Positions 7,135 to 58,654 of a stretch of DNA of 64,000 nt are shown here, one piece after another. Origin of the DNA: the human T2T-CHM13v2.0 reference genome, Homo sapiens; assembly GCF_009914755.1 (NCBI RefSeq), contig NC_060944.1; one strand, given 5' to 3'. Under the pieces are notes generated by a model, which saw only the letters and a program-made list of their open reading frames with translations, had not been told where the DNA came from and searched no databases. Both the position numbers and the translations under genes were made by a program. Numbering within the stretch: position 1 is the first letter of the stretch; every line of letters begins with the position of its first letter.

Positions 7135-7449
<315 letters not shown>

Positions 7450-7791: not shown

Positions 7792-7835
7792 AACCAAAAT
7801 TACAAGGGCCATGGATTGTCAAAGGGAAAAGAGCG
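7792..7835 (+). CDS. TTLL9: TTLL9 exon 2 (NQNYKGHGLSKGKER)
   Basis: cttttcctttcctcattgcag|AAC...GAGCG|gtgagt; 44 nt, phase 0 to 2. Confidence 0.92.
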
Positions 7836-8444: not shown

Positions 8445-8803
<359 letters not shown>

Positions 8804-53650: not shown

Positions 53651-54435
53651 CAAGGTTTGGGGAAGCCATCCTGCTTAGTTGTGGGGTGAAGATGTTGAGG
53701 AAGGAGTATTCTGAATGGTGGTCACTTAACTTCTCTGAGCCTCCATGGTCTCATCTGTGAGATGGGAATAATTTGGGGAACAAATGAGATAATGTGTGTA
53801 AACATGCTCTGTGAGCTGCAAAGTGCTGCTGATGTCACTGGTGGTGACGATGGTGATGGTACTGAGAGGCCAAATCTCAGGGCTGGGCCTTCCAAGGCCA
53901 CCCTGACCCTATCCCAGTGCTGGATCCCTTTGCCAATATTCCTACAAAGTGGCCGCCCAGCCTGGACCCCTCTAATGACAGACAGCCTACTGTGTCCTGA
54001 GATGGTTGTTCTGTATTTGGTTCCTTTACTTGTTAGAACCACTCCTCTTGAATTAAAAAAAAAAAATCATAATATACCACAAAGGTTAAAAGAAAAGAAA
54101 AGAAAAACCGTAGTATAATAGCTATGCCAGGCACTGGAAGAGGCACAGTATTTAACCTTTTGAAAAATCCTGTGAGGTCAATATACTGCTATGTACCCCC
54201 ATTAAAAGGTGGGGAAATAGGCCCAGGGAAGTGAAATGGCTTTTCAGGAGCCCACAGCCAGGAAAGATGCAGGCAGGATTTGAATCCAGGCCCATCTGAC
54301 TCCAAAGCTCACACACACGACCGTGGAGCTATTTCGTAGCCTTCCCCATCAATTCTCAGTTCAGTCCTGGGGACTTCGTGGGGCAGAGCTCACCCTTTTT
54401 GTTCACGCTGACCCTTGACCACCACCCTCTCCCAG

Positions 54436-54494
54436 ATGTTCACCTCACCAACGTGGCTGTGCAAAAAACATCTCCCGACTACCACCCAAAGAAG
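54436..54494 (+). CDS. TTLL9: TTLL9 exon 11 (VHLTNVAVQKTSPDYHPKK)
   Basis: ctcccag|AT...AAG|gtgagg; HLTN motif; 59 nt. Confidence 0.95.
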
Positions 54495-55114
54495 GTGAGG
54501 AAGCCGGGCTCGGCTATGCACGGGTACAGCCCTCTGGCGCCAGGTCGGGGTGGGGAGGGTGGAGTGGCAAGGAGCCCAGGACAGGCCTGTCTGAGCCTGT
54601 GTTCACCAGTGAGGCAGGCCTACCCATCCCACTTGCAGGGCTCAGGGCAGGACTACAAATGGAGGCCCACATATCATGTGTCTCAGTATTTAAAAGTTGC
54701 AAATCACACTAACACACACCTAAACAAAATATGTCCTATCCTCCTACCTTGACAGATATCTTCTATTGGTCAACGGATTAATCGATTAATGTAATGTATC
54801 ATACAGATATATTTTATCTCTCTGTCTATGTAAAATAACCTGCAAGGCCAGGTTCAAATACAGAATTCTCAGACTTCTCAGAGTCAAGGGCCAGATCAAG
54901 GGGACACAGGAGAGCAGGTCCCCAGCTCACACCTGTTCCCTTCTCTTCCCTCCCCAGCTCCATCCCACAGTGGGGCCCTTGTGCATACACAGCCCTGAAA
55001 ATGGCAGCCTGTCGGTCACTCCTTGGCCTTGGGATGCACACATGGTCAGTGTGGTCTGTCCTTAGCAAGTCAGGCTCAGAAAAGGGGCCTACGCAGGCCA
55101 TGTGGGCAGGGACT

Positions 55115-55387
55115 TCTGGGGTCCTGCATAGCCAGTCCTCTTAGACATGAAGAATTTTTGCCCCTCAAAGAGGGGCACACCTGGGGTCATCCTAATTACA
55201 GGGCTCAGGGCTGGGCCCCTCTTGCCCAGGTCTAAGGGAAACACTGAGAGCAATTGTGTAAGGGTCCTAGCAGGCCAGGTCCTGACTAACTGAGGCTCCT
55301 CTCTCGACCCGGCTGCCCGGGGCCCAGGGCTGCAAGTGGACGCTGCAGCGCTTCCGGCAGTACCTGGCGTCCAAACACGGGCCCGAG
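55115..55387 (+). repeat. Left arm of a non-transposon inverted duplication (intron 11 end plus first 60 nt of exon 12)
   Basis: Manual alignment to the reverse complement of 56336-56607 gives about 80% identity with a single gap. Confidence 0.92.
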
Positions 55388-55524
55388 GCAGTGGAGACAC
55401 TCTTCAGGGACATCGACAACATCTTTGTCAAAAGCCTGCAGAGTGTGCAGAAGGTGATCATCAGTGACAAGCACTGCTTCGAGCTGTACGGCTATGACAT
55501 CCTCATCGACCAGGACCTCAAGCC
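55328..55524 (+). CDS. TTLL9: TTLL9 exon 12 (GCKWTLQRF...[17 protein letters not shown])
   Basis: branch CTGACTAAC at 55282-55290; cccag|GGC...AGCC|gtaagt; FELYGYD motif; 197 nt. Confidence 0.96.
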
Positions 55525-56335
55525 GTAAGTGGGTGGGTGGGAGAGCCAGGAGGTCATAGTTTGCATACTCGGCACCCAGACTGCCCAGGTTTGAATCCCA
55601 GCTCTGCCAATTCCTAGTTGTATAACCTTGTGCACACTTACATTTACTGTGCCTCAATTTGCCCATTTGTAAATGGGGTTGGTCATGACAGGATCTATCC
55701 ATAGGTCATTAGAGGATCGTTATGAGGAATAAGTGAGATATAGTCTTTGGAGCACTGAGGACCGAGCCTGGCACTGGGAGGCCCTTCCTGATCATCTGCT
55801 GAGTCAGGAATTCTCCCCTATACCAAGCAAGAAACTTCCCCTCTGTAAGTCTTGGAGCTTTGAAGATGCAAAGAGCCATATAATGGAATATTGTTACAAT
55901 GTCGATCTCTGCCAAGACTTTGATCCACTCCCAAGATGCCCGTGGAGGAGGTTGAGCTGACGAATAGAACAAGCCTGACCTGGCAGGGACCACCACGATG
56001 GCCTCACATGATGCAACAGGACACAGAAGCCCAGTGAGGGTCAGGGAGCTTGAGGTCATGTAGCAAGTCAAGGGCAAAGCCAGGCCCAGGGTCCAAGGAC
56101 CTGGGCTGAGCTGCTCCCCACCAGCACTGCCAGCTCCAGGAGCCAACCCCCTATTCAGGGTCACCATGTAAGTGTTGAGGGGCTTTCTAAGCCAGGAGGA
56201 GGAGCCCTAGAGCAAGACCTAAGTCAGGCCCTTGCTCAACGGAAACAGGGTCCTGGCACCAGCAGGTCTCTCTCCTTTGTCCCCTGCAGCAGGATGTGAC
56301 TGCTGGCATTAAGGTGGACGTGGTGGAGGAATAAG

Positions 56336-56607
56336 CTCTGGCCCATGCTTGGACACCAGCTACTGCAGGAAGCACTGGAGCATCCACTTGCAGCCCTGGG
56401 GCCTGGGTAGTCAGGTTAGGGGAGGGACCTCAGTTAATCGCCACCTGGCCTGCTGAGACCCCTAAACAATTGCCCTCAGTGCTGCCCTTAGGCCTGGACA
56501 AGAGGGGTCCAGCCCTGAGTGTTGTGATTAGGATGACTCCGGCTGTGCCCCTCCGTATGGGCAAAAATTCTGCAGGTCCAAGAGGACTGGCTGCACAGGA
56601 CCACAGA
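56336..56607 (-). repeat. Right arm: inverted, decayed copy of the exon 12 acceptor region (GCKWMLQCFLQ*LVSKHGPE)
   Basis: Reverse complement reads ccccag|GGCTGCAAGTGGATGCTCCAGTGCTTCCTGCAGTAGCTGGTGTCCAAGCATGGGCCAGAG. Confidence 0.92.
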
Positions 56608-57512
56608 TGGCTACGTCACCTCTCTGAGCCTGTTTCCTCATTTGTAAAATGGGAAACACCATGTCTACCTCTCCAAGTTGTTAGAGTAATTTACCAAGAT
56701 AATTTGCTGTGTAGTGGAAAGGGGCTTGGTCTCCCACAGACCTGCTGGGTGAGCCCTTCCCTCTCTGGGCCCCAGCTTTCTGTCTGTAAAAGGATGGGGT
56801 TGAACAAGACAAGAGGTGGCTAGCGGGAGGTCTTTGGGCTGCTTTTGGCCTGCAGATACTTCGAATTTGGCCTTTAGACTGTTTTTGTTTTTAATTTCAA
56901 TTTATTGACAGGCTCTAAAATTTGGAAGATGTTTACATAAAAATCAGAATTACCAAGTACAGTGACTCAAACACCTATAATAATAATACCAACTACTCAG
57001 GAGGCTGAGGCAGGAGGATGACTTGAGGCCAGGGGTTCAAGGCTGCAGGGAGCTAAGATTGCACCACTGCTCTCTAGCCTGAGTGACAGAACTGGATTCT
57101 GACTCTTTAAAAAAAAAAAAAGTCTATTTTTGGCTTTTCTGGAAAAATCAGATGATCTCGCAATTCTGGACTCACATTCCCACAGGGCGGCACTCTCCTG
57201 GGGCTGGCCACAGCCACCCCTTTAGACTTGGAATGCCCTCTCCAGCTCACCACAGTCTCCACCCCTCCCCACCGCTTCCCACCCCCTGACACAGCAGGTT
57301 GGGTGCCACCTACAGTGTGCAAATTTTCACTAAGAAAGGGAAGTTTTTCTTGCATTCACATCTCTATTGGAAGAAGGGAAAACAATAACACCACGAAAGC
57401 ACCATAATCATTCCTATGCCAGCTTTCTACATTTGAGTTACCTTTCTTCAAAGTGGAAAGGTGGCTCATGCCTGTAATCCCAGCACTTTGGGAGGCTGAG
57501 GCGGGTGGATCA

Positions 57513-57846
<334 letters not shown>

Positions 57847-58031
57847 CTAGCCTGGGCAACCTAGCAAGACCCTATCTCTATAAAAATAATTAAAAAAAAA
57901 TAGAAAGGTAGAGAGAGTAGCCTGGATTGAATTGACGGTGGGGTCCATGCATCCATCTAGCCTCTCAGTGAAATCCTAGGGGCTCCAGGGACCGAGTAAC
58001 CCTAAGACTCTCTACTCCCCTCCCTTCCCAG

Positions 58032-58145
58032 GTGGCTCCTGGAGGTCAATGCGTCCCCATCACTGACAGCCAGCAGCCAGGAAGACTATGAGCTCAAGAC
58101 CTGCCTCCTGGAAGACACCCTGCATGTTGTGGACATGGAAGCGAG
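58032..58145 (+). CDS. TTLL9: TTLL9 exon 13 ([11 protein letters not shown]...DMEAR)
   Basis: ttcccag|G...GAG|gtgagg; catalytic LEVN-x-x-PS motif; 114 nt. Confidence 0.96.
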
Positions 58146-58654
58146 GTGAGGGAGGGCAGCCTTGATCACATGTCCTTGTACATGACAACTGAGGCTCCCA
58201 CCAAGGAAGAGGGGGAGCTTAGAACCTTGGGGCCTGAGTGGCCCTCAGCGATGGCTCTGGCCTGCCCCACCACTTTATAGATGGAGAAGCTGAGATGTCC
58301 ACAGAGGGTGGGGTCCTGACCCAAGGACTTGACCTCTCCAGGGCAGAGCAGGGCCAACTACAGCTTTCTGAGACAGTCCAGCAGGATTTCCTCGAAACCT
58401 CCTGACTGTGGGGCTCTGGACTAGTCACATCACCTTTCTGAGCCTCAGCTTCCTCATCTGTAAAATAGGAAATGCCATGTCTGCCTCTCAGAGTTGTTAA
58501 TTTACAAAGATAATTTACTATCTAGTGCTTAGCTAACAGTAAGTGCTCAATACAAAGCTATTGTTTTAACAATGTGCAATAGCAGAAAAAAAAAAAAACC
58601 CAGAGCTACTTTTAGGAATGGGTGAATCCAGGTGCTCAATGTTGGCTGGTCTAT

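What the first reader, a model, noticed from the sequence alone, without database searches (positions are those of the whole stretch)
55115..56607. Inverted duplicate of the gene's own branch point, 3' splice site and exon start could form an in-cis antisense hairpin
Seen: 55115-55387 (213 nt of intron including branch CTGACTAAC and the AG, plus 60 nt of exon 12) is copied in reverse at 56336-56607, about 950 nt away. By manual alignment it is about 80% identical with one gap, and many mismatches are G-U compatible. The copy encodes GCKWMLQCFLQ*LVSKHGPE, so it derives from the gene and not from a transposon. Inference: in pre-mRNA a ~270-bp duplex would hide the exon 12 acceptor and loop out its donor. 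Skipping this 197-nt FELYGYD exon shifts the frame. The duplex could also be an exonic ADAR substrate or an endo-siRNA source in the germ line.
Basis: partly seen in the sequence, partly recalled or inferred. Interest (0 to 1): 0.8.

Follow-up and report, generated by a model that had tools for sequence, protein, structure and literature searches.

The report
Old inverted copy of TTLL9 exon-12 acceptor
A 273-base piece of the human TTLL9 gene, spanning the end of intron 11 and the start of exon 12, was copied backwards into the next intron long ago; it could fold back on the splice site in the RNA, but its sequence looks like a slowly decaying relic, not a maintained switch.

Summary
Window 55115-55387 (213 nt of intron 11 plus the first 60 nt of TTLL9 exon 12) recurs reverse-complemented at 56336-56607, 948 nt away. 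There are 221 matches, 51 mismatches and one 1-nt gap, 81% identity. In the whole T2T genome only these two copies exist, so it is not a transposon family. The exon end of the left arm belongs to the TTL domain. The copy carries a stop codon, so the left arm is the source. In silico the duplex dominates the fold. It is present in the MFE of 1.5-kb and 3.7-kb contexts, the acceptor AG pairs with probability 1.0, and ddG is -212 kcal/mol. That is in the range of inverted Alu pairs of the same gene. No sequence signal shows the pairing is maintained. Transitions that keep a G·U pair in the sense RNA number 17, against 18 that give A·C (p=1.0). Mismatches are evenly spread and the copy has lost its CpGs. 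My reading is an old, neutrally decaying local inverted duplication that gives the pre-mRNA an Alu-pair-grade hairpin as a by-product. Effects on splicing, editing or small RNAs are untested. Cross-species and RNA data were not available here.

The parts
55115..55387 (+). Left arm, the source: last 213 nt of TTLL9 intron 11 (55115-55327) plus the first 60 nt of exon 12 (55328-55387). T2T chr20:33659115-33659387.
   Evidence: The exon part belongs to a Pfam TTL match.
56336..56607 (-). Right arm: inverted, decayed copy lying in intron 12, 811 nt past the exon 12 donor. Read on the minus strand it reproduces the branch region, the AG and a 20-codon exon fragment with an in-frame stop. T2T chr20:33660336-33660607.
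   Evidence: It has 3 CpG against 9 in the source.
55388..56335 (+). The 948-nt spacer, which is the loop of the predicted hairpin. It holds the remaining 137 nt of exon 12, its donor (exon ends at 55524) and the first 811 nt of intron 12.
   Evidence: No Rfam family matches here at E<=1.
55282..55290 (+). Branch-point-like motif CTGACTAAC, 36-44 nt upstream of the AG. It is paired to the right arm in the predicted folds.
   Evidence: Sequence. A55285 and A55289 pair with 56438 and 56434 in the 3.7-kb MFE. Mean pairing probability is 0.79. That this is the branch point is inferred from the consensus, not shown.
55326..55327 (+). Acceptor AG of exon 12, inside the duplex.
   Evidence: Pairing probability to the right arm is 1.00. 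It pairs with 56397/56396 in the 3.7-kb MFE.
55328..55524 (+). TTLL9 exon 12 (197 nt, phase 0 start), encoding TTL-domain positions 184-249 of 292.
   Evidence: Annotation supplied with the finding; (E=4.9e-11).

Best explanation
This is the relic of one old, local, small inverted duplication. A 273-bp stretch of genomic DNA spanning the intron 11/exon 12 boundary of TTLL9 was copied in reverse orientation into intron 12, about 0.95 kb downstream. Template switching during replication or templated break repair is the likely route, but that is inferred. Since then the copy has drifted as neutral intron, and so has the intronic part of the source. Only the 60 exonic bases of the source stayed constrained. 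As a by-product, the TTLL9 pre-mRNA carries a long-range self-complement about as strong as the many inverted Alu pairs in the same gene. This one differs in covering a branch region, an acceptor AG and coding sequence. It probably forms in a share of nascent transcripts. There it would act like an inverted Alu pair, a promiscuous ADAR substrate and perhaps a mild brake on use of the exon 12 acceptor. Nothing in the sequence indicates that the pairing has been selected. Shown: the repeat, its uniqueness, the direction of copying, the in-silico duplex and the neutral substitution pattern. Inferred: the mechanism of origin, an age of roughly 40-90 million years, and any behaviour in vivo.
For: (1) The repeat is real and single-copy. 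It is 81% identical over 273 nt. Only the two arms are found in the 3.1-Gb assembly with either arm as query, apart from one 41-nt 90% match on C15. Of the 13 TTLL9 exon segments (+-60 nt) in the window, only exon 12 has a second copy. (2) Direction of copying: exon 12 matches Pfam TTL over residues 1-65 (E=4.9e-11), while the copy has a Tyr-to-stop change and 5 non-synonymous against 4 synonymous differences (and my own reading of the codons). (3) Neutral pattern. There are 35 transitions and 16 transversions. Transitions that preserve pairing in the sense RNA (G·U) number 17, against 18 that break it (A·C), p=1.0. The 52 non-matching columns fall 7, 7, 7, 7, 10, 7, 7 across the 39-nt bins. 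The longest perfect run is 18, against 20.8±5.2 for random placement. 14 of 51 mismatches sit at CpGs. The copy lost all 6 of the CpG sites that differ in the exon part, and in the intron part each arm lost 4. Non-CpG divergence is 34/200 (17%) in the intron part and 3/48 (6%) in the exon part. That is the direction expected if only one of the two exon copies drifts, though Fisher p=0.07, so the support is weak. (4) The hairpin is ordinary in strength. ddG of arm pairing is -212.5 kcal/mol (-0.78 per nt), against -0.76 to -0.94 per nt for four inverted pairs in the same window whose arms match the Alu-ancestral SRP model in opposite orientations. The window holds 52 inverted pairs of at least 100 nt within 5 kb.
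Against: The duplex is predicted to be very stable and to include the acceptor itself. It appears in the MFE of 1493 nt and of 3710 nt, with 228 of 273 left-arm bases paired to the right arm. Mean pairing probability is 0.84 and the AG pairs at 1.0. Some effect on splicing is therefore plausible and was not excluded. With only two sequences and no outgroup, the G·U against A·C test has little power, and compensatory changes cannot be seen at all. 81% identity after a long time could also reflect some constraint or past gene conversion. The arrangement of an exon with its complement in the downstream intron is exactly that of classical editing sites.
Confidence: 0.7

Rival explanations
1. Selected in-cis antisense switch. 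The right arm is kept because pairing with the branch region, AG and exon start lowers exon 12 inclusion. Skipping the 197-nt exon shifts the frame, presumably leading to NMD. This would tune TTLL9 output, with helicases or ADAR setting the balance.
For: The duplex covers the AG with probability 1.0 and the branch region with 0.79, and it persists in the 3.7-kb context. Exon length is 197 = 3x65+2. From the sequence, the tract just upstream of the AG is purine-interrupted, which I read as a weak polypyrimidine tract and hence possibly structure-sensitive. No score was computed for this.
Against: Substitutions show no bias toward preserving pairs (17 against 18). In the exon part all 5 transitions give A·C. 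The acceptor-proximal bin has the most mismatches, 10 of 39. The selected RefSeq transcript includes exon 12. No paper links TTLL9 with exon skipping (1 paper, and its single TTLL9 passage concerns expression only). 13 papers hold TTLL9 and 'alternative splicing', and none concerns this by title or abstract.
Confidence: 0.1
2. Editing-complementary-sequence-like element. The 60-nt exon/downstream-intron duplex, alone or within the 273-bp helix, recruits ADAR and recodes or marks exon 12.
For: The geometry matches classical exon-ECS pairs, with the exon 5' part paired to a complement 0.95 kb into the next intron. The 98-nt acceptor+exon sub-duplex has ddG -84 kcal/mol. One exonic A (55375) faces a C, which I recall as a favoured ADAR context, but editing it would be synonymous (AAA to AAG).
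Against: No paper in the library holds both TTLL9 and 'A-to-I' (0). The helix is imperfect and Alu-pair-like, which predicts low-level promiscuous editing and not site-specific editing. No editing database could be queried here.
Confidence: 0.08
3. Circular-RNA promoter. The 213-nt intron-intron part of the repeat flanks exon 12 and brings its donor and acceptor together for back-splicing.
For: Reverse-complementary matches lie in both flanking introns, 948 nt apart.
Against: The helix runs through the acceptor and 60 nt into the exon, so the site needed for back-splicing is itself occluded. 2 papers hold TTLL9 and 'circular RNA', and neither is about a TTLL9 circle by title or abstract. Their texts were not read.
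Confidence: 0.04
4. Hairpin source of endogenous small RNAs (endo-siRNA, or a proto-microRNA locus formed by inverted duplication of its own target, as proposed for plant MIRNA genes).
For: It is an inverted duplication of genic sequence, the starting point of the plant model. I saw that model only in the title and abstract start of the preprint 10.1101/682591 listed.
Against: The longest perfect helix is 18 bp, or 22 with G·U. The element is intronic and therefore nuclear. No miRNA family matches the arms or the spacer at E<=1.
Confidence: 0.02
5. The two arms are copies of an interspersed repeat, or the match is chance.
For: None beyond a 41-nt 90% match on another chromosome.
Against: E=1.5e-65 between the arms. 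There are only 2 copies in the genome with either arm as query, though that tool warns its counts of repeats are lower bounds. One arm contains a TTL-domain coding exon. No Rfam SRP/Alu-type match falls in the arms.
Confidence: 0.01

Closest known systems
Inverted Alu pairs (IRAlus) in introns flanking exons (Lev-Maor et al. 2008, PLoS Genet, PMC2533698; Athanasiadis et al. 2004, PMC526178). I saw the search listing and abstract starts only. That such pairs shift exons from constitutive to alternative is recalled.
   Same: Two ~270-nt reverse-complementary segments, ~80% complementary, about 1 kb apart on one pre-mRNA. The pairing energy per nt is the same as for Alu pairs of this very gene. 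The expected behaviour is also shared: intramolecular dsRNA, promiscuous A-to-I editing and a possible weakening of the enclosed exon.
   Different: The arms are not Alu or any other repeat family, with only 2 copies in the genome. One arm is the gene's own acceptor region plus coding sequence, so the helix covers the splice site itself and does not merely sit beside it.
Exon / editing-complementary-sequence (ECS) duplexes of recoding sites such as GRIA2 Q/R (recalled, not looked up).
   Same: An exon segment pairs with its complement in the downstream intron, so any editing must precede removal of that intron.
   Different: Classical ECSs are short, highly conserved and direct one specific adenosine. 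Here the helix is long and imperfect, shows no pair-preserving bias, and has no reported edit.
Catalogued conserved long-range pre-mRNA structures (PCCRs; Kalmykova et al. 2021, Nat Commun, PMC8052449). I saw the listing and abstract start, and searched 3 supplementary files.
   Same: Long-range complementarity within a human pre-mRNA that loops out a donor and overlaps a splice site.
   Different: Those pairs are defined by conservation, which could not be tested here. [quoted passage not shown] The full catalogue is not in those files.
Small templated or fold-back inverted duplications as a mutation class (listing only: PMC3907307, PMC10622511).
   Same: An inverted duplicate with a spacer and sharp junctions.
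   Different: The published cases in the listing are large chromosomal events. This one is 273 bp, ancient and fixed in the reference.

Membership tests
Intramolecular inverted-repeat dsRNA of pre-mRNA (IRAlu-type) | Two reverse-complementary segments of hundreds of nt on one transcript, within a few kb | tested here: met
   273/272 nt, 81% identical, 948 nt apart. Both arms lie inside the TTLL9 transcription unit (annotation supplied with the finding).
Intramolecular inverted-repeat dsRNA of pre-mRNA (IRAlu-type) | Arms are Alu/SINE copies | tested here: not met
   Only 2 copies genome-wide. There is no SRP/Alu-type Rfam match in the arms, whereas the comparator pairs do have one. So it works like an IRAlu but is not one.
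Intramolecular inverted-repeat dsRNA of pre-mRNA (IRAlu-type) | Duplex forms in vivo (clustered A-to-I editing, PARIS/RIC-seq chimeras) | not testable with these tools
   Only in-silico folds were possible. 0 papers hold both TTLL9 and 'A-to-I'.
Conserved splicing-regulatory long-range RNA structure | Substitutions biased toward keeping pairs (G·U or compensatory changes) | tested here: not met
   17 G·U-compatible against 18 A·C transitions, p=1.0. Power is low because there are only two sequences and no outgroup.
Conserved splicing-regulatory long-range RNA structure | Both arms conserved across species | not testable with these tools
   No other vertebrate genome is held. states that the assembly has no relatives here.
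Conserved splicing-regulatory long-range RNA structure | Disrupting the pairing changes splicing | not testable with these tools
   This needs an experiment.
Exon-ECS editing duplex | Exon segment pairs with a complement in the adjacent downstream intron | tested here: met
   55328-55387 pairs with 56336-56395: 51 of 60 matches. Mean pairing probability is 0.80.
Exon-ECS editing duplex | Site-specific exonic A-to-I edit | not testable with these tools
   No editing data were available. Literature search gave 0 hits.
circRNA-promoting reverse-complementary match | Complementary segments in both flanking introns | tested here: met
   55115-55327 (intron 11) against 56396-56607 (intron 12).
circRNA-promoting reverse-complementary match | Back-splice sites remain accessible | tested here: not met
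   The acceptor AG pairs with probability 1.0 inside the helix. This is an in-silico result only.
Interspersed repeat / transposable element | Many dispersed copies in the genome | tested here: not met
   2 copies plus one 41-nt fragment. The tool warns that its repeat counts are lower bounds.
Hairpin small-RNA locus | Long near-perfect stem able to give Dicer products | tested here: not met
   Longest perfect run 18 bp, 22 with G·U. No miRNA family match in the arms.
TTL (tubulin tyrosine ligase-like) coding exon, for the source arm | Match to Pfam PF03133 above the curated cut-off | tested here: met
   42.8 bits against a cut-off of 20.1, E=4.9e-11, profile positions 184-249 of 292.

The most novel reading that the evidence does not exclude
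The inverted copy is a built-in antisense to the gene's own exon 12 acceptor, arising roughly in the primate era. In tissues where dsRNA helicase or ADAR activity is low, the 270-bp helix closes over the branch point and AG. This would be a lineage-specific splicing throttle created in a single mutational step by self-duplication, not by a transposon.
Probability: 0.1. Interest if true: 0.6.

Novelty: new member of a known kind. Interest (0 to 1): 0.3.

Why it matters
Long-range pairing in human pre-mRNA is almost always discussed for Alu pairs or for short conserved boxes. This case is clean and single-copy. A gene carries a 273-nt antisense to its own acceptor, branch region and coding start, at a distance where Alu pairs are known to pair. 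That makes it a convenient natural test of how far a strong helix placed directly over a 3' splice site is tolerated by co-transcriptional splicing, without the confounders of repeat families such as multi-mapping reads and competing partners. If the neutral reading is right, the lesson is sobering. A very stable predicted hairpin over a constitutive acceptor of a functional gene can persist for tens of millions of years, so predicted stability alone is a poor guide to regulation.

Tried and rejected
(1) Extending the repeat. The inner flanks (rest of exon 12 and intron 12 against the sequence upstream of the right arm) and the outer flanks score within 200 shuffles (33 against a null maximum of 35; 25 against 39), so the duplication is only 273 bp.

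(2) Dating the insertion by asking whether the right arm interrupts an older repeat. Alignments of its flanks to the repeat-like stretch at 55530-55800 were weak (scores 36, 25 and 20 against null maxima of 33, 32 and 34), which is inconclusive.

(3) Known RNA families in 54300-58200. Only sub-threshold Alu-type matches downstream at 57026-57880 appeared, and none in the arms or the spacer.

(4) U12-type donor motif. It matched 2 places in the window, with 1.1 expected by chance, and neither is at an annotated exon end, so it was dropped.

(5) Literature. TTLL9 with 'exon skipping' gave 1 paper, whose one TTLL9 passage concerns expression only. TTLL9 with 'A-to-I' gave 0. TTLL9 with 'circular RNA' gave 2, unrelated by title and abstract. 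TTLL9 with 'alternative splicing' gave 13, none about this by title or abstract. One badly framed search did not require TTLL9 and was uninformative. 'editing complementary sequence' with 'inverted duplication' and 'exon' gave no paper among the 12 listed that holds the first term.

(6) Supplements. They might list this pair, since they cover long-range structures beyond conserved regions and RIC-seq structures.

(8) Considered without a computation: recombination between the arms inverting the spacer. I judge it unlikely at 81% identity with 18-bp perfect runs.

Full report
**1. The observation**

The repeat finder on 54000-58500 reports two adjoining inverted pairs: 55156-55387/56336-56567 (232 nt, 80%) and 55115-55163/56559-56607 (49 nt, 86%). 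A gapped local alignment shows they are one repeat split by a single 1-nt gap. It runs from 55115-55387 against the reverse complement of 56336-56607, with 221 matches, 51 mismatches (35 transitions, 16 transversions) and 1 gap column. Identity is 81% and the K2P distance is 0.22. The arms are 948 nt apart.

The left arm is 213 nt of intron 11 plus the first 60 nt of exon 12. It contains CTGACTAAC at 55282-55290 and the acceptor AG at 55326-55327. The source reads [20 protein letters not shown] and the copy GCKWMLQCFLQ*LVSKHGPE.

Homology ends abruptly at both junctions. Neither the inner nor the outer flanks align better than shuffled sequence.

**2. Not a repeat family, and which arm is the original**

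I searched the window's own 3.1-Gb assembly with the right arm. It finds itself, the left arm (E=1.5e-65) and a single 41-nt, 90% match on another chromosome. The intronic 213 nt of the left arm find only the two arms, even at E<=10. The tool warns that repeat counts are lower bounds, but a dispersed family would have given many candidates.

Of the 13 exon segments of TTLL9 in the window (each ±60 nt), only exon 12 has a second copy. Exon 12 translates to 65 residues that match Pfam TTL (PF03133) at profile positions 184-249 of 292, with 42.8 bits and E=4.9e-11. The copy has a Tyr-to-stop change. So the left arm is the source, and the right arm is a dead fragment of gene sequence inserted in reverse.

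No Rfam family matches the arms or the spacer at E<=1.

**3. Could it fold?**

In silico it clearly can.
- The 1493-nt stretch from arm to arm has an MFE of -765.6 kcal/mol. Its outer stem is the whole repeat, and the centroid keeps it.
- Pairing the arms gains -212.5 kcal/mol over their separate folds.
- In the partition function a left-arm base pairs with the right arm with mean probability 0.84. The branch region is at 0.79, the tract plus AG at 0.88, AG|G at 1.00 and the 60 exonic bases at 0.80.
- In a 3710-nt context from exon 11 to exon 13, 228 of 273 left-arm bases still pair with the right arm, including both candidate branch adenosines and the AG.

These are equilibrium predictions for naked RNA. 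They ignore co-transcriptional kinetics, proteins and helicases.

**4. How unusual is that strength?**

It is not unusual for this gene. The window holds 52 inverted pairs of at least 100 nt within 5 kb, and the exon 12 pair is the second longest. Four of the others gain -0.76 to -0.94 kcal/mol per nt on pairing, against -0.78 here. Their arms match the metazoan SRP model, the ancestor of Alu, on opposite strands, so they are inverted Alu pairs. Two things set the exon 12 pair apart: it is not a transposon, and its helix lies on a splice site and coding sequence, not beside them.

**5. Is the pairing maintained?**

The two arms allow a few internal tests, and all give the neutral answer.
- (a) Transitions are either harmless to the sense-strand helix (G·U) or disruptive (A·C). 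The counts are 17 and 18, binomial p=1.0. In the exon part they are 0 and 5.
- (b) The 52 non-matching columns fall 7, 7, 7, 7, 10, 7, 7 in 39-nt bins. The highest count is in the bin holding the branch motif and the start of the pyrimidine tract. The longest perfect run (18) is as expected for random placement (20.8±5.2).
- (c) 14 of 51 mismatches are at CpGs. In the intron part each arm lost 4. In the exon part the copy lost 6 and the source none (CpG 9 against 3 overall).
- (d) Non-CpG divergence is 34/200 in the intron part and 3/48 in the exon part (Fisher p=0.07). This is the direction expected if both intronic copies drift but only one exonic copy does.

With two sequences and no outgroup these tests are weak. 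They cannot detect compensatory changes or a modest constraint.

**6. Age and origin (inference)**

A per-copy non-CpG divergence of about 6-9% is similar to what separates Alu copies in the same window, whose pairwise complementarity is 71-87% among the 25 longest pairs. Using my recalled values for neutral rates on the human lineage, this suggests something like 40-90 million years. I cannot say whether non-primate mammals have the copy.

The sharp junctions, small size and nearby inverted placement fit a replication template switch or templated repair. At this age no junction microhomology can be trusted.

**7. What it most likely does**

My best reading (0.7) is a neutral relic whose hairpin is a by-product. 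By analogy with inverted Alu pairs about 1 kb apart, I expect the helix to form in some nascent transcripts and to be edited promiscuously. It may cost some efficiency at the exon 12 acceptor. The right arm is transcribed about 1.0-1.3 kb after the acceptor, which is seconds to tens of seconds later (recalled elongation rates), so competition with spliceosome assembly is conceivable.

A selected splicing throttle (0.1), an ECS-like editing element (0.08), a circRNA promoter (0.04) and a small-RNA hairpin (0.02) remain as rivals. The circRNA idea is weakened because the helix occludes the acceptor that back-splicing needs. The small-RNA idea is weakened because perfect runs are at most 18 bp.

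**8. Literature**

Full-text searches gave the following.
- TTLL9 with 'exon skipping': 1 paper, whose only TTLL9 passage concerns expression.
- TTLL9 with 'A-to-I': 0 papers.
- TTLL9 with 'circular RNA': 2 papers, unrelated by title and abstract and not read.
- TTLL9 with 'alternative splicing': 13 papers, none on this topic by title or abstract.
- TTLL9 is absent from the 3 supplementary files held for the PCCR catalogue paper PMC8052449. The full catalogue is not among them.

I therefore could not see the supplements of PMC10691357 and PMC10573301, which might list this pair. I also could not read PMC2533698 or PMC3564746 beyond the listing. On these searches this inverted repeat is not described in print. 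The kind of feature is well known: an intragenic reverse complement affecting pre-mRNA.

**9. Verdict**

The origin from the gene, the folding capacity and the frameshift arithmetic hold. The hint of maintained pairing does not, and all functional claims are untested. It is a new member of a known kind. Interest is modest (0.3). The case is tidy and experimentally attractive, but the sequence evidence points to neutrality.

Noticed in passing
window 7135-7416 (+) and 8562-8803 (-), around exon 7792-7835: This is the longest inverted pair in the window (263 nt, 82%, 1143 nt apart, pairing ddG -246 kcal/mol). It consists of two Alu-type (SRP-model) elements in opposite orientation that flank the 44-nt TTLL9 exon at 7792-7835. 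That is the textbook arrangement for Alu-mediated exon skipping or back-splicing.
   Followed up: partly
G000:C15:72175925-72175966 (locus L003): A 41-nt, 90% match to right-arm positions 142-182 (window ~56477-56517), E=1.8e-5. The corresponding part of the left arm does not find it even at E<=10. It is probably compositional or chance.
   Followed up: no
window ~55560-55775, 56617-56700 and 56749-56835: These stretches are weakly similar to one another (score 36 against a shuffle maximum of 33). From memory they look like old MIR-type SINE cores, all in the same orientation. One begins about 10 nt after the right arm ends. Whether the copy was inserted into such an element could not be decided.
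   Followed up: partly
window 56984-57088 and 57454-57897: Direct repeats and sub-threshold SRP / mir-1268 / mir-3135 / mir-1285 matches indicate Alu-type elements in intron 12, downstream of the right arm. The miRNA-family hits are all far below gathering score and overlap the Alu-type matches.
   Followed up: no
TTLL9 gene (place not known): A paper on vertebrate twintrons (U2- and U12-type introns at one position; PMC3564746) mentions TTLL9 once (listing). I could not read it. A U12-type donor motif search gave only 2 chance-level matches in the window, neither at an annotated exon end.
   Followed up: partly
window 56168-56173 and 56281-56290: Within the hairpin loop the sense strand carries a consensus-like donor (ATG|GTAAGT) and, about 110 nt further on, a pyrimidine-rich ...CCCCTGCAG acceptor-like site. 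They are in the wrong order to define one exon, and no transcript in the supplied table uses them.
   Followed up: no
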